Source of the DNA: Phoronis australis
Lineage: Eukaryota; Animalia; Phoronida
Direction of reading: 5' to 3'
DNA length: 64,000 bases
NCBI GenBank assembly: GCA_002633005.1
Contig: NMRA01000125.1
Coordinates: 777,566-841,565, forward strand
Part shown: positions 5,149 to 54,600 of the stretch, one piece after another
How positions within the stretch are numbered: the stretch's first letter is position 1
Layout: each line of letters begins with the position of its first letter
The notes under the pieces: model-generated
Databases searched by the model: none
Told to the model about the DNA's origin: nothing
What the model saw: the letters and a program-made list of their open reading frames with translations, nothing else
Made by a program: the position numbers and the translations under genes

Positions 5149-6306
5149 ATGTCCGTCGGAAACGGTTCATCTACTGACGTCCCGGAAGTTATGGACCAAA
5201 CCTGGCTACGGGCTGTTTTCATCGTGCTATATTGCATCATTTTTATATTAGGAGTTGGTGGTAACATTCTGGTTATAATTGTTGTTCTGCGAAACAAAGT
5301 CATGCAGACTATTACTAACTTATTCATAACAAATTTGGCAGCCAGCGATATACTGATTTGCATATTTGCCGTTCCTTTCACACCGCTCGGCGCTTTGATG
5401 GAATCTTGGATATTCGGGGAAGCTCTTTGCCACTTGGTTCCTATGATAATGGCGGTGAATGTGTTCGTGTCAACACTGACCTCTATTGCGATAGCCGGCG
5501 ACAGGTACCTCATAATTGTCCACCCATTTAAACCTCGCATAAAGGTACGGCACTGCCTGTTTATAATATTAGTGATATGGTTCATTGCCATTTGTACGTC
5601 ACTGCCAATGTCTGTGTTCATGGAACACTTCCATGACAACGTCACTGACACTTATCAATGCCGTGAACAGTGGCCCGGTGACGGCGAGTCAGGCAAATAT
5701 TACGGCGCCATGCTAATGTTACTACAGTACGTCTTACCGTGTATTATCATCATGTTTTGTTACATCGCTGTCGGCCTTGTGTTACGGAAACGAGCAACAA
5801 TGAAAATAGGTTCAAAGAGTCAACAGAGGGAGCAAGTGGAAATACGGCGCAAGCGCAAAACAAACCGGATGTTAATATTGATGATAGCCATTTTTGTTTG
5901 CTGTTGGATGCCTCTAAACACGTTTCACTTAGTCACGTCGTTCATTCCTACGAAGAGTTTAGAAAAGTTCCATTTATACTTACTGTGCTTCTTCACCGTT
6001 CACGTGATTGCCATGTCTTCAACTATTTACAATCCCTTTCTGTACGCTTTCATGAACGACAATTTCCGAAAAGAATTCCATTTATTCATACCGTGCTGCT
6101 TTCGTATGTGTAAAAAGCGTGACGTCAACGGCTCCTTGCCCATGCCTTATACACAGGCTTCTGAGTTACGCCGTGCGTCGACACCCAATGCCGATCAGGG
6201 GTCAGATTCGCCTTTGAATGGAAAAAGCAATGTCTTCACCCAGAATGTCGCATTTGAATCCGATAGCTGTAAGGTTCACCTTTTTGCTGAACAGGGAGCG
6301 TCTTAA
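5149..6306 (+). CDS. Rhodopsin-class neuropeptide GPCR, short neuropeptide F / prolactin-releasing peptide receptor-like (385 aa, intronless CDS)
   Basis: Seven hydrophobic segments with class A motifs: GN in TM1, NLAASD in TM2, DRY, CWMP in TM6 and NPFLY in TM7. The segments RNKVMQTITNLFITNLA, VPFTPL and HVIAMSSTIYNPFLYAFMNDNFRKEF resemble sNPF/PrRP-type receptors. N-terminal N-glycosylation site NGS; CC palmitoylation-like site after helix 8. A probable 5' UTR splice acceptor (gtttttctattgcag) ends at 4955. Confidence 0.93.
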   Translation: MSVGNGSSTDVPEVMDQTWLRAVFIVLYCIIFILGVGGNILVIIVVLRNKVMQTITNLFITNLAASDILICIFAVPFTPLGALMESWIFGEALCHLVPMIMAVNVFVSTLTSIAIAGDRYLIIVHPFKPRIKVRHCLFIILVIWFIAICTSLPMSVFMEHFHDNVTDTYQCREQWPGDGESGKYYGAMLMLLQYVLPCIIIMFCYIAVGLVLRKRATMKIGSKSQQREQVEIRRKRKTNRMLILMIAIFVCCWMPLNTFHLVTSFIPTKSLEKFHLYLLCFFTVHVIAMSSTIYNPFLYAFMNDNFRKEFHLFIPCCFRMCKKRDVNGSLPMPYTQASELRRASTPNADQGSDSPLNGKSNVFTQNVAFESDSCKVHLFAEQGAS

Positions 6307-17157: not shown

Positions 17158-18485
17158 AGGCGAAGGCAATCTTTGTTCATGTCATTTTTAGCAAAAATAA
17201 GGTTCGTTGGTTATTCTAGACATATTTTTCACTTATTAACTGCTTTTCGTAATTTAATTAATTACTCGTGGCCTACTCCGGAAGTGACGTTTTGGGAGGC
17301 AAGAATTTCGCGCCAATTTCTGTTCATATAGTCTGACTGTGAGAGCAGTCGAGTCAGTCGTTGTTCTACCTCGGTTGTGATAAGTTCGGTCGTCGTTTGC
17401 TTTTACTTACGAGTCAGTCAACATGCCACGCTGTTGCTGCGTACTTGGGTGTACTCATTATCGTCTCACGTACAGAGGAAGAACTGTCCCACTTGCCCGA
17501 GTGTCCCACGACACACTCCCAGTGGAGAGTGATCTGAGCACCCAAACTGCTTGACATCCCGCTGTGTGACTCCCTCGCTACACACCTGGCACCTTCTAAA
17601 TAGCTCCAATACAAGTCCACAATAAACTTATCAAACTTAGGCTCACCGATCTGTTAATTGGAGGATGACGAACTGTCCTCTTGACTGGGTGTCGAACTGA
17701 GCCTGTATTCACTCCCACTACTCAACATCGCTGCAGGGCTGCTTACAGGCTCTGGGCTAGAGACAACAGCACAGGGCGAATCACTGCTAGTTCCCATAAT
17801 TGCACACAATGTGGTACTTTCCGAGGCACGGGTGACAGTAGATGAAGTGCCTCCAGTCACTGTATATAGTGGCCACAAGGCTTCTCGCTTCAAAAACGCA
17901 CTTCTCGGGGTTGGCGACGAGACACTGCGGGGAATCAACAACGACGGTAGGGTACCCTTCCTCAGGCGTTGTTTCGCAGGGACCTTCATTAATTCAGCGT
18001 ACATATCTGTCATAATCTGACGGCAGAAAATTCCTGCCATGCACTCGGTAACCCTCCATTGCTTTGTACATTACGTGGACGGGTAGCGCTGCGTTCTTCA
18101 CATGAACGAGCTAGCCAAGTACGGCGAAGTGTGTCGTCCTTCGGAAAGCGACGCAAGGTACCCAAAGCGCGTGTGAGACGATAATGAGTATATCCCGGCA
18201 CACAGCAACAGCGTGGTTTGTTGACTGACTTGTAAACAAAGGCAAACAACTACCGAACTTATCACAACCGAGGTAGAACAATGACTGACTCGACAGTTCT
18301 CACAGTCAGACTATACTGAAAAGAAATTGGCGCGAAACTCTTGCCTCCCAAAACGTCACTTCCGGAGTAGAGGACGAGAAATTAATCAAATTACGAAAAG
18401 CTGTAATTAAGTGAAAAATGTGTCTGGGATAATCAACGAGCCTTATATTTGCTAAAAGTGACATGAAAAAACGTTGCCTTCGCCT
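17158..18485 (-). mobile_element. Kolobok-like DNA transposon derivative with about 310-bp TIRs and a degenerate THAP transposase N-terminus
   Basis: Left end TTAA|AGGCGAAGGCAA; right end TTGCCTTCGCCT (the right TTAA is degenerate). TIRs span 17158-17469 and 18172-18485. The minus strand encodes a frameshifted THAP domain (PRCCCVPG..LRRFPKDDTLRRTW..RLRKGTLPSL), a Ser-rich linker and KFIV..C..G....HWECVVGHSGKWDSS. No DDE domain is present. Confidence 0.72.
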
Positions 18486-40600: not shown

Positions 40601-41927
40601 GACGGGCGTGAGCAGATCGACCTGGGTCTAAACAATACAAAATATTAAAAAATACGAATGCACTAAATCATTATAATATTAAATCTTTCGCAGCTTTGCT
40701 GATACTCACTACCTACATGTACGTTAACGAAATTCTGTAAACTAAAACGCTTTTTAAATATTCCTATGTCATATCTATAGCAAATATTTGCGGAGTTCAT
40801 CGTTCTCGTTTGGAGTGACAAGAGGCAGAAGAATCAAAAATGACATGTTTGAGCACAACATATAATGAAGTTGCATAACAAGAAAAACGGTTTTTGTGCC
40901 ATGTCACGCTCAATCTTCAAATGCTTCACTTTGCCTGTAATGCAGTTTCATAGGAAACAATCCTTTCATCTTTAGGAAAACACTAACAGGTGACGGAAGT
41001 GGCTTTTCTTAAAATCTCCAAAATATCGCTTAGAATATTTTTATGGAACAAATTCTGGACATAGGGATTATTTTGGGAATTACCGTTCGAATAAGCATTG
41101 CACGTGCGGAGGAAATGGTCATGTGGTCGGTTGTCGCGTGTGTAAGGAGTTCCGTGAAAATCAATCGCTGATAACATCATCTTTGAAAATATGTATCTTT
41201 TTCATATTTAGGGGCCCAGCATTATCAAGACATTCGACCCAAACAACCAAAAATGTGAAAATACAAAAGGATTGACCGCCATCGAAAAGGTAGAATTTTG
41301 AAAAACGGGAAGACCAATATTTGTGAATTACACAAAATAACTATTTCCTATAATTATTTATAAAATAGTGTTACTTCTTTCCCATAGTATCACAAGAATA
41401 GTGTTTCTTTTGAAGATCGTTACTAGGAGTTGTTTGTCAGGAATTCACACATGTCGACTGTAGGGATACGATTTGTGATGACCGTGTACACGTCGAATGG
41501 GGGTACTCAAAGTACTCGCAATCATAAACAGAGAATTCAGCGGGGTTTTTTGGAATCCAATTTTAACTCGTGAACTGTTATAGGTACCTCTAAAATAAGC
41601 AAAAATGCAACTTCATACGAATTTCCTATATCCTATGTTTCCCGGTTACCCGTCAAAAATCTGCGAGCATGCCTGCGGAAATTGTATTTAACCGACATTC
41701 CGTGTTAATAAACAAATTCGTTGGTTTCTGATTTACAGGTTTATATATCTTCGAAAATCGCCATATTCATGGATTAGTTTTGGCATTTAAAAGCTTATCT
41801 TGCAAGAATGTTGACGTTTCACTGAATGTAGTTACAGCCGATCTACAAATAATAAAATACACTTGGACGATTTTTGCCTATCTAAAATAACTCTCAATGA
41901 TATTGATGAAATTCGGATAGTTTCCAT

Positions 41928-41957
41928 GTACATATATACATATACATATACATATAC

Positions 41958-42030
<73 letters not shown>

Positions 42031-42031
42031 C

Positions 42032-42066
<35 letters not shown>

Positions 42067-42073
42067 CATACAC

Positions 42074-42116
<43 letters not shown>

Positions 42117-42117
42117 C

Positions 42118-42150
<33 letters not shown>

Positions 42151-42157
42151 CATACAC

Positions 42158-42190
<33 letters not shown>

Positions 42191-42192
42191 TA
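41928..42192. repeat. (TACATA)n hexanucleotide satellite
   Basis: Read directly; occasional TACACA/CACATA variants. Confidence 0.97.
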
Positions 42193-42560
42193 TTCAAATG
42201 ACAATGAATACATTGCTTTTCGATTTAGGTACGAGATTTGTTGTTTAAACTCACAAATAGAAGATCAAAATGGATTTAAGCCATTAAATTAAAGTAAATG
42301 CATTGCTCATTGAATCGATTGTTGGCTTCTGATTTACATGTACGTCTTCGTGTATCAATGAAAATCGACTTACAGTGTATTGATAAATGATTTTTTGACA
42401 ATTAGAAACAAATTGAAAGAAATGGCGAACTTAGTTGCAAGCTGACATTGGGACATCTCGATCTATCATCAGGTCCCCAAATAGCAAAATACATTAAACG
42501 ATTTTTGTCCATCTGAAATACTGAGTCTCAAGGAATACTGATGAATAGCGAACAGCTCTA

Positions 42561-45284: not shown

Positions 45285-45665
45285 CAGTGGCGGATTTAGG
45301 GGGAGGGGGGGCCAAGGGGCCATGCCCCTTTAAAATTCTGACAGTTGCCATTTGGCAGTTCGGGTGTGAATTGCTGACTAGCACATGCGCNNNNNNNNNN
45401 NNNNNNNNNNNNNNNNNNNNNNNNNNNNNNNNNNNNNNNNNNNNNNNNNNNNNNNNNNNNNNNNNNNNNNNNNNNNNNNNNNNNNNNNNNNNNNNNNNNN
45501 NNNNNNNNNNNNNNNNNNNNNTTTTTTTTCTTGTCAAAAGGCCCGCAAACCCAAAAATTCGAGACCGCTGCATCCCTAAATTTTAGGCTGGGCGCGCGCA
45601 AGCCGAAATTCTGGTTATTGCTGTGCCCTGTCCCCTCATAACTCAAAATCCTGGATCCGCCCCTG
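45285..45665 (+). mobile_element. hAT5-like MITE, composite copy (5-bp TSD ATAAC), spanning an assembly gap
   Basis: TIRs CAGTGGCGGAT / ATCCGCCCCTG, with ATAAC on both sides. The N-run at 45391-45521 lies inside the nested insert. Confidence 0.82.
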
Positions 45666-46810
45666 ATAACGAAGATAGAATATTGAGACGTTTGGGTATG
45701 AATACGGAATGATGAGTAGGTGCTGCAATGAACCAAATCATAGTAACTTCATAAGTTTTATTGAACAAGATTAAACTACCAAACATGGCAGGCATGATAT
45801 GAAGCAAGAAGTCAAGTGGCGACATCGACATTATTCAGTAGCACATAGTGCTTACAGAAGCGCTATTGCCTGGCATATAATATAGACGCCAAGACAGCCG
45901 ATTGTTTGAGCACGTGTACAAAGTACATGCACTGCAAATTGTATACTATACTAACATAAGTCGGAGTGTACTTGTAGTAGCATAAAACATGTTTGGTCTT
46001 ATGCGCGGCGTAATCCAAGAATTTATAATTCTCTGCTTCCGTGAGAATATGTGAAAGGTACAGTGTATCGTAGTCAAACAAACCGGCTTTTTGTAGCTCT
46101 AGCATAATATAACGTAACTTAGTTACTACAATTCTCCCGGCACCTTGCGCTCAAACTGGTCGCCTTGTCTACCGAAAGGTGGAGCGCCGAATGCACCTTA
46201 TCGGTGCAGCGCTTTCATTCTAACAACAATGTTATAAAGCTTGTAGAAGGCCCTGTCACGCCAAACTTGTTCTCAGGACTCATGAGCCCGTCTTAAGAAA
46301 TTCATTGATGAAACGAGATTGAAATGGGGAACTTCGAATCAAAATCGTACTGAGAGACTGAGAGCTGGAGTGACAGAACAGCGGAGCCTTAGAAGTGCTC
46401 AAAGGAAAGCATCATACGAAACAAATTTGAATATCCATGTTCTAGCATTAGTGTAAGGATTTAAACCAGGATTTGTAACTCGACGGAAATTCAAGCCTCG
46501 TTCACACCACGGTGTAAGCGCACAGTCCATTGAATATTTATACGCTGTAGCATATGGACTATACGCAGACTTGAGCAACTCTTGAATCAATCTAAGCTAC
46601 AGTGAGTTTGGCATACATAACTCGCCCAATCGTGGATGGATTCTATTCGGAATAATACGATCATTGGAAATTAAATTCCAAAAATAAAAAGTAGATATTC
46701 AGCGTATTAAATTGAAAAGATTAGCTGGCAATAAATCAAAGTTTACAGCCAAAAGGCGAGACGAAAACGTTTGACAATACTTCATAGAAATTTCAGGACA
46801 TACCACGGTC

Positions 46811-46925
46811 AAATAAATTATCAAATAAATTACACAATAAATATACAATTAATTCAAACATTTCAAATGAACAAATAAATACAGAAAATAAATAAATTAA
46901 CAAATAAATAAATAAATTAATAAAT
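46811..46925 (-). promoter_or_regulatory. AU-rich element (ARE) cluster in the 3' UTR of the secreted-protein gene
   Basis: About ten ATTTA pentamers on the minus strand, including overlapping TTATTTATTTATT, 190-300 nt after the stop codon. A candidate AATAAA lies near 45760. Confidence 0.6.
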
Positions 46926-47110
46926 TAATTTAACATTTCAAATGCAAAAATACTCGTCAGCAGCAGAATGACTACATGTGAATTCTCAGTGATATTGTGA
47001 TATCAAAGAGATGCTCACATTTTAATATCAGATGACAGCAGGTTGATACTTGGGAATGCATAGATCGGATGGAATCCAGTCGGCGAGCAATCAGACACTC
47101 GCAGAGACAT

Positions 47111-47257
47111 CTATGGCTGATCAGCCAACAAAGATTGGTTGGCCTCTGCCAACACGCATCGAAGCCAATATAGATGAGCCAAGTGAAATAGAGCCCGATC
47201 CATTTTGTCAGCCAATACCCTCGTGGAAGCGGTAAAGTCAACGGCAGGGAAGCCAAG
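47111..47257 (-). CDS. Orphan secreted helical-cytokine-like protein, exon 5 (last)
   Basis: Branch-like CTAAT and acceptor ttgttttttccag|CTT, phase 0. Translates LGFPAVDFTASTRVLADKMDRALFHLAHLYWLRCVLAEANQSLLADQP*. Confidence 0.75.
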   Translation of the reverse strand, partial: LGFPAVDFTASTRVLADKMDRALFHLAHLYWLRCVLAEANQSLLADQP

Positions 47258-47557
47258 CTGGAAAAAACAATGGATGTCCATTAGAGCTCTCTTCGTGTCC
47301 GCTTACTGTAACTTAACTAACGAAGAACCTGAAGGTTTGGAAAACTTGTGCATTCTAATAATAGAGTTATGAGGTCCCTGCTTTTTCCTTGTGAGAATTC
47401 TAAATACTTGAACAAAACATACCGGAATTTGTGAAATGTTTTCACAAATAATCGTAAAGCATCAACATTAGTAATATTCAAAAGCCAGACTATTGCAGCT
47501 GATTCTATCCGAAAATTCTGTTAGCATAAACCTATATGACTGACAATCACCAGTTAC

Positions 47558-47635
47558 CCGATTCCTCAAGGTAGGTTTTAAGTTTTGACAATTTGCAGAC
47601 GCGTTACCAAATTGGTTACTAAAAGTGCTACCAGC
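47558..47635 (-). CDS. Orphan secreted helical-cytokine-like protein, exon 4
   Basis: Acceptor catgttctag|GCT, donor CGG|gtaact. 78 nt, phase 0-0, open: AGSTFSNQFGNASANCQNLKPTLRNR. Supplies an amphipathic helix and a sixth mature Cys. The splice sites are weaker, and skipping this exon would keep the frame. Confidence 0.6.
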
Positions 47636-47749
47636 CTAGAACATGGTTACAAGTAATAATTCTGGACAATAGATGTCGCTTGGAACACGACGTTGCGCAA
47701 TAAGACGGGCTATCACACAGGTATACACACGCAACATCAATATGCTCAC

Positions 47750-47965
47750 CTCGTCTACGTATTCGCCAAAAATCAACCCCAGATTCTTCAAATGTACGAT
47801 TTCACAGTACAATTCATGTTTTTCTGAGGTACTGTCGCTGCTACAGACGTGCGCCGTCTTGCACGATTCGTCTGTCCCCAAATAATAACAGGGCTCCAGG
47901 GTGTCCACGCGGGACGAAGAGACGTCGAAAAGCTTGGCGGCACCGTGAGCGTACGACACAGCATG
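47750..47965 (-). CDS. Orphan secreted helical-cytokine-like protein, exon 3
   Basis: Acceptor tttgtgtttatacag|CAT, donor GAG|gtgagc. 216 nt, phase 0-0: HAVSYAHG...EPCYYLGTDESCKTAHVCSSDSTSEKHELYCEIVHLKNLGLIFGEYVDE. Confidence 0.8.
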
Positions 47966-50900
47966 CTGTATAAACACAAATGGCATATTGAATTATTTAA
48001 GGTGAAAAGCAGACACATGTTACATTTAACTTCCCGAGAAAATTAAATCGGCATACCACATTCCATCGAAGACTGACACATACGATGTTTGCTGATCACC
48101 AAAAAAAAACAACAAGAAACTAGGCACGTTGAACTTCCTTTAATTTCAACCTGAGTGGCATTTTGGTGAAATTTAGCGGTTGTTTGCTGCGAAGTATTAA
48201 ATCATTCTAATGATACATTGTCATGATATGTTGATTTCATCAGCACTCCGAAACCGGCTTTCGCCTCAGTTGTCTCACATTTCCGTTCTCAGTGCGTTCA
48301 TGCATCAGCAGATCGCTAACTATTCGGAAGTGACTCTTCCTTTCTTTACTAAAATAAAGCAGGGAACCATGTCGCCCCACATCATGGCCAAAAAGGCATT
48401 CTAGCAACAGGAGAACAACTCGACACTAAGCCCGTACATAAGAACTGGTGCCTGTATTCAGTAAACGTGGCCTGGATATAGAAAATTCCCAGTTAAAAGA
48501 CAACTAACGCAATAAGAAGAATATACTGTAGTGCACAATTCGGAATCAGTCCTTACCGTTGTTGTGTTGAACTTCGGAACTGCAGGAAGTTCTGGGAAGT
48601 ACCTACGTAGCGTCATATTGGCTAGGTTTGAGCAACTTTTCTGCCAAGGTTCGTAGAATTCTGGATATTTCGCACACTGAAACGAAACGAATTGTATCCG
48701 TCATTAGCAGACGATTTCAGGTAAGGGAACTGTCACACCAACCATAGATAGTGCACTTAATACCGTGTCTCAGTCGATAACTAAAAAACACGAGTGAGAG
48801 CGTTCTGCACTGCGTCTAAGGGGTCCAGTCACACCGGAGTACGGTACTCACTACTTGACACTAGAGAGCCCGTAGAACTCCCGGCGTTAACGATTTCTCA
48901 TTCTGTTTTGGTTAAAATCGTCTGATTTTTGACATAACGGATTGAAAACCTACACAACTGAAATTGTCACTAGAGGCAGCCGAGGAATTGCAACCACTTG
49001 TTGAAACAGAAACTGTTTACTTATGGTTGGTACTTGACCCATTAAGTGACAAAAAGGTGGAACACTCCAATTTTCTCCAGTGTCTTATTTGGCTCTGTGA
49101 GCACCGAGATAATAATTTGTGTGGGATACTTTCGGATGATAAACCCCGATTAGAGGAAATTGTTTTGTCGCAACTGTGGCATTTGTCGTTATTTTTCAAA
49201 TTGGCTCATCGGAAGTGTATTGAGAGGAGTCACAGAGAATTTTCATTCTTGATATTTTGTCCAATTTATGATATGTGTAGCTGTGTGTAGCCACACGTTG
49301 ATTACTCCGGCCTAACCCGTGAGTCATAAGGGGATTCCGCGCTAACGGGTTAACCATAACTCAACGACTATTGGCCAATGCAATTCAGTACATGATTGAC
49401 AGTTATGAATGTACAAGGCGCAATTTTCCCGCGGTAGAAACAACAACTCACTGTGACAGTATTCGCTTGACAATTTCCCCTCAAACTCACTGGATCCAAG
49501 CATTAAGACGTTCCACTCAGACTCGTGGTCCCAACTAGAGACTATTCCCTCATACAGTCAACCACAACGACAGAAAACCGAGAGCGATACACGTTTTTTT
49601 AGAGCTTCGACAGCCGTACTCTGGCGACCCACGCCAACATAGCCGTGGAGGTTGTATTATCTTACATTGACACGTGCTTTGACGAATTATTATGATTATG
49701 TGAAGGCAAACACATTTTATTATACCCACACCAGTTGTTCACTGGCAATTCATTTTAACCTTATTCACTGACTATAACGGCGTCTAATTGTGAGCGGTGC
49801 AGGACTCGTGGAAATGGGGGGAGGTATTGTAACTGACGTCAGTGGCTGGTGCTTCGTTTATTCACAATTTAGTACATTGAGACAATAACCATCGTGTTTA
49901 ATTACCGACAGAGTGTGAGTGAGTAATCGTTGAATTGTTTATTTTTCTCATTGTTGTAGGTCTCATAATATTGACGTTATTCCCCAAAACTCATCAGTGA
50001 TAATGAACGTCAATTAGTCCATATTAAATGACTGCGAGGCTGGGAACTCCCTCCGTATGTCTGACGTGGAAGGAAGTCGGCATTGTTTATTTTTACTTCC
50101 GACTCTGAGTCTGTCGTTGCAGCGGCGTGTAATTGAAGTGGTTACTGTGACGTAACTAAAACGGGGATTCCGCTGGTGAAGATGACGGGATTTCCGGCGC
50201 TTTCAGTAGGACAGACCGAATGAATGCCAAAGTGTGCGCTGAGGAATGCGTGTTTCTCGCTGCGTTTCACGGGTAGGCCGGTGGGGACCAGGGAGATGGC
50301 GGGCCACATTGAGGTAATTTCGAATATTGCCGAACTATAAAAACGCCGTTCAACTGAATCACGACAATGCTTTAATCTAAATAGGAAATTTCGGTAAAAC
50401 CATTCTCTAATAAATGTTTCCTGTGCCTGAAGTGTTACTCAGTGCGATACAGTAACGTTTGTTTTAATAATAAACGAAATTATGATTCCAAGGAAATGAA
50501 TTGCGTGACATTAGAATGAGTGATTGTTTGCTTTTTATTGACATTCACCTTTTACGAAATGCTTGAGACACCTGTCGGTGAAGCCAAATCGGAATGTCTT
50601 CTCTTTAGAGCAGTTTTTAGAGCACGAAAAGCCACGCGGCCCATCCTTGCAAACATCCCCGAGACAATGTAGTCTCTTTCCGCTTACATTTACACAAACC
50701 TTATAATCTCGGTGGATTTATTAAAGATAAACAACCGCTATCATTAATTTATCGTGTCATAAGGTTGATAACACTCGAGTGGAAATACTGCAATTTTAAC
50801 ATAGTTTGAGGCAGTCAGGATCGGAATAAAAACAAACAAGATTGTTCTGGTGGCGCTGCGTTTAAGTTCGTGAAACTAAATTGACATTATTTGCGAATTG

Positions 50901-51066
50901 GAAAAAGACGACTCTGCGAATGGTTCTGCTGCCGTGGACACATAAAATGTTTCGAAAAATTTCATCGCGGCTTGTGGAAAGCTACCGCAATCACTACGTG
51001 CCATAATCCGATTCGATTTTATACATTAAACGTGCAAACAGTACTGATCAAAATGAATTCACTTAC

Positions 51067-51296
51067 CCAGTCATTAAATGCCTTTTCAGCCTCTCCATTT
51101 AAATCCCCGATGTGTCCACGAACACCATTTGTAACTACACTGCGTGCTGATCTAACGTGACTTATTTCTTGGTCCTCCGTCTCCAACACCTTGCTCCGTA
51201 ATCCCTCCAACAGGACAGATCTCCTGACTGGCTCCGCTGGTCGACAAAGGACGGTGCAAATCAGTGCGCTGAACACAACGATGGAGTTGCTATTAA
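51067..51296 (-). CDS. Orphan secreted helical-cytokine-like protein, exon 2
   Basis: Acceptor ttcttttttcag|TT, donor TGG|gtaagt. 230 nt, phase 1-0. Contains the signal-peptide core IVVFSALICTVLC-RP, a dibasic RR, the furin-type site RSAR and then VVTNGVRGHIGDLNGEAEKAFNDW. Confidence 0.8.
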
Positions 51297-51404
51297 CTGA
51301 AAAAAGAATATTGGCACTGACACGATATACGCAACGAGTAAGTCGTGGTCTCTTATATCACCGTTATAAATAGTTAGATATTTAAAAAAATAACGTCTAC
51401 CTAC

Positions 51405-51408
51405 CCAT
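51405..51408 (-). CDS. Orphan secreted helical-cytokine-like protein, exon 1 coding part (ATG G)
   Basis: accATGG|gtaggt: strong Kozak context and a phase-1 donor that matches exon 2 across a 108-bp intron. It is the first ATG downstream of the TATA-predicted TSS. Confidence 0.7.
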
Positions 51409-51527
51409 GGTAAATGCGGTATGATAACTCAACTTCGACGGATAAATAAGTATATATTATATGTATATGCAGGTCCCTATGATACGCTTCACAATCGTTT
51501 GGATGAAAATGTTGAGCGACATCACCT

Positions 51528-51688
51528 TATTTATAGTCCCAGGTCCTAGTTCCTTAATTTACTATTCTAAAAATAATCCCCCTCAACTATTGTAGGCGTT
51601 AGGTTTTGTCTTATTGCTTTCGAGAATTCGCTACTCGCTGGTCAGTTCCGAGTGACGTCATCTCACTTGTTCCCACGTTTGTGATTGG
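51528..51688 (-). promoter_or_regulatory. Proximal promoter of the secreted-protein gene
   Basis: TATAAATA at 51535-51528, palindromic CRE TGACGTCA at 51653-51660, CSL/Su(H) consensus CGTGGGAA at 51677-51670, and CCAAT at 51688-51684. Confidence 0.6.
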
Positions 51689-54600
51689 CCCTTTGAAATC
51701 TCGCTCAACATTGATTCATTCGTAGTAAAATCCTGTCGAAGGAAACTTGAAAAAGATGCGGTGATAAAAAACAAGTGTTATAATGATGAAGTAATTATAG
51801 AAATATCATTCAACACTTCCTGAAGTGGGTTGGTAAAATTTAAATTTTGGCCAGAGTTGTCCAAGGAGGAAGCCTTATCATTTAACTATCGGTCGACGGT
51901 GCCCTCCCAGTGTGCCTAAATCCGAGCAACAAGACCCCAACAGTCCAGCCAAGCGCATTACGGACACTTAACTACCAAATGATAACGTTGCGCATTTCCA
52001 TTAGTTCTTGGGTAATTTTAATTCCATTTTCATTATCGTTTTCGCCGATCGCGACAGGACAGTTGTCGAGATATACAAAACTCAGGATATAGCAATCCAC
52101 AATAAGTTCCATGTTATCTATTGTTTCGCAGAGGTACGAAAGTGTAAGAACATCCTACTACTGCCTCAGGGATTTGTTGCCCAAAGCAACAGCCTGGCGT
52201 GATTCTTCCGTCACGCTCCCTACTCTGTATGGCACGATGGAGGCTTTATGAAGCGGGAATTGAACCACTAGGTTTCACATTCTTTATTGCTTCGCAGTTG
52301 CACGAAACTGGTAGAACCAATTGCAAGCCTCTGTGGTTTCCTGTGTCTGACACTGTCGTGTTTATACTTCGGCCAATCATGTGTCAGTCTCTAAGTTTTG
52401 TTAAAAAAACACAGAATTCACAATCGAATGTCCAAGAAAAAACGTTAGCCATTTACATGCAATAATGCTTGCTTTACTTCACGTACACGTGTTGTGACAG
52501 TTATATTTATACAAGAGGCACTAATTTTCACTTTCCATTACACGTCACGTTATCAGCTAGTAGGACTCGACTGACGTGGATGTCGGTGACATTAATCTTG
52601 CCTTCACGTTGCCAAATTTTCGTTTTTTCAACATTTTACATAATGCAAAGCACGTCTCAATATACAGATTAAAAATGAGCTGAGTTGTGAATATATGTCG
52701 GTCTGTAACGGACAATTTCAAAATAATTAGTTTATCTATTAGGTATTACAATTTGTCATGTGCATCAAGCTAGACTCTAGAAACATTTAGTAGAAACAAA
52801 AACGCAGTAAATAAGATGAAATCATGTTTACCATCAGTAATGTTAACAATGCAATTATTTTAAATTGCGTGTTTAAAAAGACCTTTAAGATTTTGTAGAA
52901 ATAATAGCGACCGCGATTCATAAATTGGTTGATTTTCAATTCGATAAATACTAATGAAATTTCGCCTGTCGCACGCTGCTGGTGTCTTTTTTACGAGGTG
53001 TTATACACCAAGTAGGCATTTAGTATAGGATACCATATACCTTTACGGAATCACTCGTCGTCGAGTGTGCACTCTACATTCGTCACAGGGATCGGGGTGT
53101 TATGTGAGAACGACGAGAAGAAATGTCACGGTTGTCTATTTACACCAGCTGCTTGCCTATTTAGATTGACACGATGTTTCGCTCGGTCATTTCTCGTGGC
53201 ATATTCAGGTGTTACAGCGATGTTAGAAGAACGAGCACACACTAGACTCGTGAGATTGGCGAAATAGATAAATTGATTTAACTAAATCACTACCTCAAAG
53301 CGGTTTGTGAACCCATGAGAAGAAAGAAAAAATGCGATACTATCCAGAAAAGGAAAATGCCCGGCGCTTGGCCCCTGACTCTGAGTAACGTGTCTCGTCC
53401 GGAATGAAACAATGTGGGAACTAAGGGTTCTCAATGCAATTTGCCATATCCAAACAAGAAACAGTGGCTTGCTGAGCTTGAGAAATTCTCATCTGAGTCA
53501 CCATTCATAGACCTTGCGCACGTGTGATTGGACCAGAATTCCTTGGATACTTGCAGGGACGTCGGGCTGATCCACAGGCCGTCTCGTATTCAATTTTATG
53601 GAAACCCTCGTCCCTTCTCTGCTTCGTAATCACAAAACGAACGCATTCATTTTTTCGTGTTCGTGGAGTAGTGGACCATTATTGCTGGTTCCTAGTGCCA
53701 ACTGAGATGATTTTATCCTGCGCTAATGATGCAAGTAATAATAGAAGAGTTGTGATGACACGATCACCCATTATTGCAGTCAGTGGTGGTAACACTCTGG
53801 GCGATCACCTTAGGTATAGCGTTTTGCCTGAGCGGACCCGTTTATGTTACTTCCTAATTGCTTTTATGAAACATCATTACCTAATAAAGGGTGCACATGA
53901 GTAGGATAAATGGGCGTAAACCAACATCGCCAAAGGTAAAATGCATTTCACCTCTTAGGTAAAATGTTTAGTCTATTTAATTCGAGGAACTCGAGTAAGT
54001 AAGCAACACAAAGCAATTAATACACGTCGTAACTGTTGCAGGTAAAAATGATTGAGATTCTGATCTCGACGGGACGACATTGTCACATTGACGCGACGCT
54101 GTTGACTGTAATTCACCCGTAAGTCTAATTTTCTTTGGAAGACGTCTTGTAAACAGTTGAAGGTCCAAACACTAGCCCGCCAAATACACAGCTTTTTACT
54201 ACACTTTTTTCATTGAACCGCTGGTCGTTATTATCTTGTGTTTACAAGAGAGTTTACAGGTGATGATAGTAATTCTTGCGTCTCTGTTATTAATATTACG
54301 AGTTTGTTATTGTAATGTACCAGTGCTAGTCTTGCCATGTTATTGTTGCAAGGATCGCTAACAAAATTATTGTGGTCATCAACTCCGTGATAATAGAACT
54401 ATTATATCTACTTCCCACTGGGTTGGGCAATGATACATACGGACCCTGCTTACTTTTCGACTGTCAAAATCACTGTCCAATATACACATCACTGGTTCAT
54501 CCTATGCAACACACAATGGGTGTGTCGGGGAGGGGCAGGGGCTGTTGTTTTATGAGCTAACCTGTGTGTTTAGCTGCTGTTCACGTATCTGTGAACAAGG

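What the first reader, a model, noticed from the sequence alone, without database searches (positions are those of the whole stretch)
47111..51408. Hidden five-exon gene with the architecture of a long-chain class I helical cytokine (candidate invertebrate JAK/STAT ligand)
Seen in sequence: five minus-strand exons (51408-51405, 51296-51067, 47965-47750, 47635-47558, 47257-47111; 4/230/216/78/147 nt) with GT-AG sites join in frame. The 224-aa product is MVNSNSIVVFSALICTVLC-RPAEPVRRSVLLEGLRSKVLETEDQEISHVRSAR-SVVTNGVRGHIGDLNGEAEKAFNDW|HAVSYAHGAAKLFDVSSSRVDTLEPCYYLGTDESCKTAHVCSSDSTSEKHELYCEIVHLKNLGLIFGEYVDE|AGSTFSNQFGNASANCQNLKPTLRNR|LGFPAVDFTASTRVLADKMDRALFHLAHLYWLRCVLAEANQSLLADQP*. It has a signal peptide, a propeptide ending at a furin-type RxxR, six mature cysteines and two N-glycosylation sites. 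Hydrophobic periodicity suggests helix A, a long Cys-containing loop, helix B, a short loop, helix C, a longer loop and helix D, i.e. an up-up-down-down pattern. Established: vertebrate IL-6, IL-11, G-CSF, GH, prolactin and EPO genes have five exons, a very short first coding exon, a phase-1 first intron and phase-0 introns after it. These cytokines diverge too fast for BLAST. Outside vertebrates and fly Unpaired, ligands for gp130/Domeless-type receptors are largely unidentified. Inference: this is such a ligand. I recognise no actual sequence homolog.
Basis: partly seen in the sequence, partly recalled or inferred. Interest (0 to 1): 0.93.

Follow-up and report, generated by a model that had tools for sequence, protein, structure and literature searches.

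The report
Lophotrochozoan IL-6-family-like cytokine gene
A weakly transcribed gene in a likely lophotrochozoan invertebrate encodes a likely secreted protein whose exon layout, once a missed exon is added, resembles interleukin-6-type cytokines, so it is a plausible but still unfolded and untested candidate for the JAK/STAT ligand reported missing in these animals.

Summary
The five exons join in frame with GT-AG ends and phases 1-0-0-0. RNA is sparse: 13 of 13 read pairs point to the minus strand, and depth arithmetic shows intron 1 spliced in one molecule. The revised 4/230/120/216/147-nt model (238 aa) fits vertebrate IL-6-family genes better: four proline-free stretches and a proline-rich loop exon. 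The last exon folds as one 38-residue helix, and the 3' UTR is ATTTA-rich. No homolog was found. The full fold could not be tested, and the IL-6 signature and FxxK motif are not met. Verdict: likely (~0.7) a long-chain class I helical cytokine; receptor binding is inferred only. The scan noted similar genes before in annelid, octopus and springtail DNA.

The parts
51653..51660 (-). CRE-type palindrome TGACGTCA about 125 nt upstream of the TATA box (6 such sites in the window)
   Evidence: function not tested; the label is recalled
51528..51535 (-). TATA box TATAAATA
51405..51428 (-). Exon 1: 5' UTR (reaches at least about 51428) plus 4 coding nt (51408-51405); phase-1 intron follows
   Evidence: one X3 fragment has about 27 nt in 51297-51444, of which about 4 nt lie at 51425 or above, so intron 1 was removed in that molecule
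51067..51296 (-). Exon 2 (230 nt): likely signal peptide, about 35-aa pro-segment ending RSAR (50-53), and predicted helix A up to residue 78
   Evidence: RNA depth over 51149-51296
48557..48676 (-).
   Evidence: best splice score in the window, protein P0005, Pro and sequon positions; only unspliced reads seen over it
47750..47965 (-). Exon of 216 nt (72 aa, 4 Cys): predicted helix B, Cys-rich B-C loop and helix C in the revised model
   Evidence: single-sequence fold uninformative (pLDDT 40.6, helix at 47-61 only)
47558..47635 (-).
   Evidence: weak acceptor, 41% GC; skipped in 1 of 1 covering mRNA fragments
47111..47257 (-). Last coding exon (147 nt): short C-D loop plus predicted helix D, stop TAG
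   Evidence: AlphaFold2 single sequence: helix 8-45, pLDDT 89.9; RNA depth
46676..46925 (-). ATTTA-rich (ARE-like) block in the 3' UTR
   Evidence: 13 ATTTA in 300 nt, the window's maximum on either strand, mean 0.75; partly a degenerate simple repeat
45757..45762 (-). AATAAA, likely poly(A) signal of a 3' UTR of about 1.35 kb
   Evidence: minus-strand reads at 46000-46650 in X2 and X3 and a 473-nt X4 contig running from 46267 downward

Best explanation
This is a minus-strand, spliced, weakly transcribed gene that likely encodes a secreted long-chain class I helical cytokine of the IL-6/gp130 type, predicted to be made from exons 51408-51405, 51296-51067, 48676-48557, 47965-47750 and 47257-47111 (238 aa) and likely to signal through the animal's Domeless/gp130-type receptor to JAK/STAT. 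Shown: the exons, open frame, phases, promoter and UTR motifs, minus-strand RNA, and the last exon folding as one long helix. Inferred from single fragments: splicing of intron 1 and a direct join of the 216-nt exon to the last exon. Inferred from sequence only: inclusion of the 120-nt exon; signal-peptide removal near residue 19-20; furin-type cleavage after RSAR, giving a mature chain of about 185 aa with 7 Cys and 3 sequons; helices A (~60-82), B (~119-141), C (~160-185) and D (~198-235) in an up-up-down-down bundle. Inferred from family knowledge: low resting mRNA, kept short-lived by the AU-rich UTR and induced by injury or infection, and binding to a class I cytokine receptor.
For: [quoted passage not shown] Here the phases are 1-0-0-0 with a 4-nt first coding exon. 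In the revised model intron 2 falls at the end of predicted helix A, the 120-nt exon is the loop (5 of the 8 mature prolines), and the next exon carries two helices, as I recall for IL-6, G-CSF and GH (exon-to-helix mapping recalled, from no call). There are four proline-free runs: 25-82, 113-142, 144-193, 195-237. The last exon gives helix 8-45 at pLDDT 89.9. Length 238 aa lies in the 150-280 window used to find lamprey IL-6, which BLAST missed. The ATTTA-rich UTR is typical of cytokine mRNA. A Lys sits at the start of helix D in LxxK (205-208), followed by K-M-D-x10-W-L; I recall this spacing from CLCF1/CNTF (a lead, untested). The host is a likely lophotrochozoan by the neighbouring GPCR, a group in which gp130-like receptors are reported but IL-6-family ligands were not found by BLASTP (PMC8226699 passages).
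Against: No fold of the whole protein was obtained. No homolog was found for any exon: word-index searches 0 of 7 and 0 of 8 candidates; HMMER over 1.84 billion representatives gave 1 hit, a spurious repeat ORF; Pfam nothing for any of the exons or sub-stretches; PDB sequences only chance hits at E>0.8. The IL-6 signature Cx9Cx6GLx2Yx3F and the LIFR-binding FxxK are not met. Hydrophobic moments of the four predicted helices do not beat shuffles (p 0.165, 0.107, 0.367, 0.68). One long helix is a generic result. The 72-aa exon folded poorly alone. The revised form has an odd number of mature Cys (7), a long Cys-rich B-C loop and a short C-D loop. A pro-segment at the N-terminus is not a feature I recall for vertebrate IL-6-family cytokines. 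The ATTTA block is partly a simple repeat. The junction evidence is one fragment each, and the 120-nt exon has no spliced read.
Confidence: 0.68

Rival explanations
1. Same cytokine, six-exon form: both the 120-nt exon and the reader's 78-nt exon are used (264 aa, 8 mature Cys, C-D loop about 37 aa), and the skipped form seen in RNA is a minor or alternative isoform.
For: The frame stays open. The 78-nt exon is the best phase-0 candidate between its neighbours, with a 98th-percentile donor. It would give an even Cys count and a longer C-D loop.
Against: Its acceptor is at the 76th percentile, its GC (41%) and GC3 (35%) are intron-like, and 1 of 1 covering mRNA fragments skips it.
Confidence: 0.25
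2. The reader's exact model (224 aa, no 120-nt exon, 78-nt exon included) is the main mRNA.
For: Open frame, GT-AG ends, even Cys count.
Against: It ignores the strongest exon signal in the window, its exon 4 is skipped in the only informative fragment, and its 216/78-nt exons 3/4 invert the usual short-3/long-4 pattern (recalled).
Confidence: 0.07
3. A secreted, furin-processed, helix-rich protein of another kind (lineage-specific hormone, defence or matrix protein, or a short-chain or type II helical cytokine) whose intron phases match class I cytokines by chance.
For: No family, homolog or fold match. Amphipathicity is not significant. Phase-0 introns are the commonest class (established knowledge). 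Type II cytokines also have five exons (10.64898/2026.05.30.728932 passages). A pro-segment and 7 Cys suit other secreted families.
Against: The joint presence of a 4-nt phase-1 first exon, a Pro-rich loop exon, four Pro-free runs, a 38-residue terminal helix with a Lys at its start, and the window's densest ATTTA block.
Confidence: 0.27
4. Not a protein-coding gene: chance exons in a weakly transcribed non-coding locus.
For: Only 26 reads in about 5 billion bases read; several are intronic. A codon model trained on one GPCR did not separate the exons from background.
Against: TATA box, a single upstream ATG, strong splice sites, two inferred spliced fragments in frame, raised GC in exons, and a poly(A) signal at the end of the RNA-covered UTR.
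Confidence: 0.04

Closest known systems
Vertebrate IL-6/gp130-family long-chain cytokines (IL-6, IL-11, G-CSF-like layout; lamprey and hagfish IL-6-like genes of PMC13081863)
   Same: [quoted passage not shown]
   Different: IL-6 signature Cx9Cx6GLx2Yx3F absent; extra pro-segment with an RSAR site; four Cys in the predicted B-C region instead of the A-B loop; fold untested; host is a likely lophotrochozoan.
LIFR-binding subgroup (LIF, OSM, CT-1, CNTF, CLCF1, fish M17)
   Same: A Lys at the start of the last helix (LxxK, 205-208) where FxxK lies; K-M-D-x10-W-L spacing and an LNG motif in helix A that I recall from CLCF1/CNTF and LIF (recalled, untested).
   Different: Phe of FxxK is replaced by Leu (Phe is conserved in 98.4% of 607 vertebrate sequences, PMC9601804); five exons, not the two or three I recall for these genes; no Pfam or PDB sequence match for single exons.
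Drosophila Unpaired 1-3 (Domeless ligands)
   Same: Invertebrate, secreted, proposed role as JAK/STAT ligand.
   Different: No Pfam match of any exon; different phylum; function here untested.
Unpublished IL-6-like candidates noted earlier in this scan (annelid e1-7142862, octopus e1-8668338/e1-8668329/e1-8791932, springtail e1-9357833)
   Same: Hidden four- or five-exon genes read as IL-6-like cytokines in invertebrates.
   Different: No shared words with three exons tested; this one is single-copy in its window and has no relative to fold.

Membership tests
Long-chain class I helical cytokines | Up-up-down-down four-helix bundle | not testable with these tools
   The spliced protein is not a contiguous stretch of the window and no full-length natural relative was found. 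Only single exons were folded: last exon one helix, pLDDT 89.9; 72-aa exon pLDDT 40.6.
Long-chain class I helical cytokines | Four long helical segments with long A-B and C-D loops and a short B-C loop | tested here: inconclusive
   Four Pro-free runs and a Pro-rich 40-aa loop exon fit. Hydrophobic moments are not significant (p 0.11-0.68), the B-C loop looks long and the C-D loop short.
Long-chain class I helical cytokines | Five exons, first intron (phase 1) in the signal peptide, three phase-0 introns in the mature domain | tested here: met
   Phases 1-0-0-0 in both five-exon models; comparison with PMC13081863 and PMC3271213 passages. Only intron 1 and the last join have RNA support, from one fragment each.
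Long-chain class I helical cytokines | N-terminal signal peptide and length 150-280 aa | tested here: met
   Hydrophobic stretch at residues 5-19, the highest 14-residue mean hydrophobicity of the windows scored; 238 aa. No SignalP was available, so the signal peptide is judged by hydrophobicity only.
Long-chain class I helical cytokines | Binds a class I cytokine receptor and activates JAK/STAT | not testable with these tools
   No genome is held for the window, so no receptor sequence was available; no assay.
IL-6 proper | Signature C-x9-C-x6-G-L-x2-[FY]-x3-[LF] | tested here: not met
   Exact pattern 0 matches; only a relaxed C-x12-C-x8-G-L-x-F form in the 72-aa exon (motif).
IL-6 proper | Pfam IL6 or related HMM match | tested here: inconclusive
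   No Pfam family for any of the five exons or four sub-stretches, but pieces of 26-76 aa have little power.
LIFR-binding cytokines (LIF/OSM/CT-1/CNTF/CLCF1) | FxxK at the N-terminus of helix D | tested here: not met
   No FxxK in the 238-aa model; LxxK at 205-208 at the matching place (motif).
Unpaired family | Pfam Unpaired domain match | tested here: inconclusive
   None for single exons; whole protein not scanned.
Type II helical cytokines (IFN, IL-10) | Five exons with a long first exon and all introns in phase 0 (phases recalled) | tested here: not met
   First coding exon is 4 nt with a phase-1 intron.

The most novel reading that the evidence does not exclude
This is a furin-activated, CLCF1/CNTF/LIF-like gp130-family cytokine from a poorly sampled lophotrochozoan lineage that keeps the vertebrate 1-0-0-0 five-exon layout and site III position. 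That would put an IL-6-family ligand with this gene structure in the last common bilaterian ancestor, and would add pro-peptide control and an alternative C-D-loop exon as new ways of tuning a JAK/STAT ligand.
Probability: 0.4. Interest if true: 0.8.

Novelty: new member of a known kind. Interest (0 to 1): 0.58.

Why it matters
gp130/Domeless-type receptors are reported in molluscs, but BLASTP surveys found no IL-6-family ligand in invertebrates beyond fly Unpaired (PMC8226699 passages), and even lamprey IL-6 needed structure-guided searching (PMC13081863). A verified lophotrochozoan ligand with the vertebrate exon layout would date the IL-6 gene architecture to the bilaterian ancestor and give a reagent for testing JAK/STAT activation in these animals.

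Tried and rejected
The run index listed no RNA holder; the four runs came by species label. Word-index protein searches with the 72-aa exon and the last exon, lengths 'longer' only: none of 7 and none of 8 candidates scored. Exon 2 and the 120-nt exon were not searched this way because the third search went to the GPCR. HMMER over 1.84 billion representatives with the 72-aa exon: 1 hit, P0006, rejected as a tandem-repeat ORF whose score is summed over four repeats. ESM Atlas: no usable hit for either exon. Metagenome contigs: 0 of 352 and 0 of 597 pattern matches confirmed. PDB sequence searches: only chance hits. Foldseek with the single helix: 0 matches, uninformative. A codon model trained on one GPCR did not discriminate exons. 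The GPCR tree did not resolve the phylum: long branch, quick tree only, 54 of 120 listed hits used. No complex prediction was run: no receptor was at hand and the report claims no binding between the pieces. Ten literature searches found no paper describing a lophotrochozoan IL-6-family ligand; the library lacks most subscription journals, and I opened no supplements (those of bioRxiv are closed), so a listing there cannot be excluded.
Full report
Observation. The five minus-strand pieces (4/230/216/78/147 nt) have GT...AG introns and give 224 aa without an internal stop. The intron phases are 1,0,0,0; there are six mature Cys, two sequons and RSAR at 50-53. Around it lie a TATAAATA at 51535, a TGACGTCA at 51660, the window's densest ATTTA block (13 in 300 nt against a mean of 0.75) below the stop codon, and an AATAAA at 45762. 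The start codon is the only ATG in 51510-51405. The ATTTA block is partly a degenerate simple repeat, so it is weaker evidence than its count suggests.

RNA. Three RNA runs, found by species label and read to about 18-19%, gave 26 reads over 46000-52500. All 13 pairs lie in the direction expected for minus-strand RNA in a stranded library. No junction reached the tool's 3-read threshold. Depth arithmetic on bins chosen to match the exon ends resolves the two coding-region pairs of run X3. One pair has 262 nt in exon 2 and only about 27 nt in 51297-51444, about 4 of them at 51425 or above; an unspliced read would give 132 nt there, so intron 1 was removed in that molecule. The other pair has 181 nt in the last exon, 67 nt in the 3' part of the 216-nt exon and none in 47301-47744. 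Each inference rests on one fragment. X1 and X2 hold three unspliced pairs in the long intron region. Reads at 46000-46650 and a 473-nt contig of X4 suggest a 3' UTR of about 1.35 kb.

A missed exon. It is the best in the window on either strand; the only other at 8 or more is the 216-nt exon, at 8.8. The revised model 4/230/120/216/147 nt gives 238 aa with 7 mature Cys (79, 93, 144, 153, 159, 172, 224) and 3 sequons; with the 78-nt exon as a cassette it gives 264 aa and 8 Cys.

What the protein looks like. In the revised model five of the eight mature prolines fall in the new exon, leaving four proline-free runs (25-82, 113-142, 144-193, 195-237). The last exon alone folds as one helix of 38 residues at pLDDT 89.9. 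The 72-aa exon alone gives a poor model (pLDDT 40.6, one helix at 47-61). This places intron 2 at the end of helix A, makes the new exon the A-B loop, puts helices B and C in the next exon and helix D in the last. Against this, the hydrophobic moments of the four segments do not beat shuffles (p 0.165, 0.107, 0.367, 0.68), the B-C loop is long and Cys-rich, and the C-D loop is short. The IL-6 signature is not met. FxxK is not met, though LxxK sits at the start of helix D, followed by K-M-D-x10-W-L, a spacing I recall from CLCF1 and CNTF. That resemblance, and an LNG motif in helix A recalled from LIF, are leads and not tests.

Relatives. None was found. Word-index searches with two exons scored none of 7 and none of 8 candidates. 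HMMER over 1.84 billion representatives with the 72-aa exon gave 1 hit, a repeat-derived ORF that I rejected. Pfam, PDB sequences, the ESM Atlas and metagenome contigs gave nothing (40, 41, 47, 48, 88; 19, 65; 57, 83). These were searches with pieces of 26-76 aa and have little power for a fast-evolving family. With no full-length natural relative, the whole fold remains untested.

Host. No genome is held. The intronless receptor gene at 5149-6306 is about 47-56% identical to mollusc, annelid, nemertean and brachiopod neuropeptide receptors. In a quick tree of 55 rows it falls on a long branch on the lophotrochozoan side, outside the sampled annelid and mollusc clades, in no well-supported group. 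I read this as a likely lophotrochozoan of a poorly sampled lineage; long-branch placement is unsure.

Mechanism. Most likely (0.68) the gene encodes a secreted long-chain class I helical cytokine. The signal peptide would be removed near residue 19-20 and a furin-type protease would cut after RSAR. The mature chain of about 185 aa would fold as an up-up-down-down bundle and engage a Domeless/gp130-type receptor, with the Lys at the start of helix D as site III. Resting mRNA is low, and the AU-rich UTR would keep it short-lived until induction. Only the gene anatomy, transcription and the terminal helix are shown; processing, fold, receptor and induction are inferred. The main rival (0.27) is another kind of secreted helical protein.

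Known systems. [quoted passage not shown] PMC3271213 (passages) gives the IL-6 signature, ATTTA motifs and the IL-11 first intron 7 bp after the ATG. PMC9601804 (passages) gives FxxK and its conservation. PMC8226699 (passages) found no IL-6-family member in invertebrates by BLASTP but a gp130-like receptor in molluscs. 10.64898/2026.05.30.728932 (passages) covers five-exon interferons. 10.64898/2026.10.26.761873 (listing and start of abstract only) links Vago4 to Domeless. PMC4929537 (passages) added nothing on gene layout. The gene meets the layout, size and signal-peptide criteria of long-chain class I cytokines, fails the motifs of IL-6 proper and of the LIFR-binding subgroup, and is untested for fold and receptor. 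I file it as a likely member of the broad class, not of either subgroup. Ten searches found no paper on such a ligand in lophotrochozoans, but the library is incomplete and I read no supplements.

Earlier notes of this scan. Five AI notes describe IL-6-like genes in annelid, octopus and springtail DNA. I could not link them to this gene by sequence and did not test them, so they are context and not support.

Verdict. A real gene with a corrected exon set, and a likely but unproven invertebrate IL-6-family-like cytokine. Interest 0.58; 0.8 if the fold and receptor activation are confirmed.

Noticed in passing
window 5149-6306 (+): Intronless 385-aa rhodopsin-type GPCR, closest to neuropeptide Y / prolactin-releasing peptide receptor-like proteins of molluscs, annelids, nemerteans and a brachiopod (47-56%), on a long branch; not in the protein collection by exact look-up.
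   Followed up: partly
window 29305-25422 (-): Multi-exon C2H2 zinc-finger gene (pieces near 29305-28784, 26407-26186, 25622-25422) with about four fingers, KLF/Sp- or WT1-like in look (label recalled); a possible synteny anchor.
   Followed up: partly
window 48658-48650 and 48598-48590 (-): Two TTCnnnGAA (STAT-site-like) motifs lie inside the 120-nt exon, both in frame as Phe-x-Glu; there are 34 such sites in the window. Either a coding coincidence or an exon that doubles as a feedback enhancer. TTCnnGAA variants lie upstream at 51824 and 51626.
   Followed up: no
window 49834-49841: A second TGACGTCA palindrome in the long intron; 2 of the window's 6 such sites lie at this gene.
   Followed up: no
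window 17332-17537 and 18098-18310: Two similar stretches (about 200 nt) flank 17654-18070, whose frames read like a fragment of a THAP-type transposon (recalled look, not tested).
   Followed up: no
window 41815-42292; 45391-45521: A long (TATACA/CATATA)n microsatellite at about 41.8-42.3 kb gives many spurious ORFs; an assembly gap of about 130 N lies about 230 nt beyond the likely poly(A) signal.
   Followed up: no
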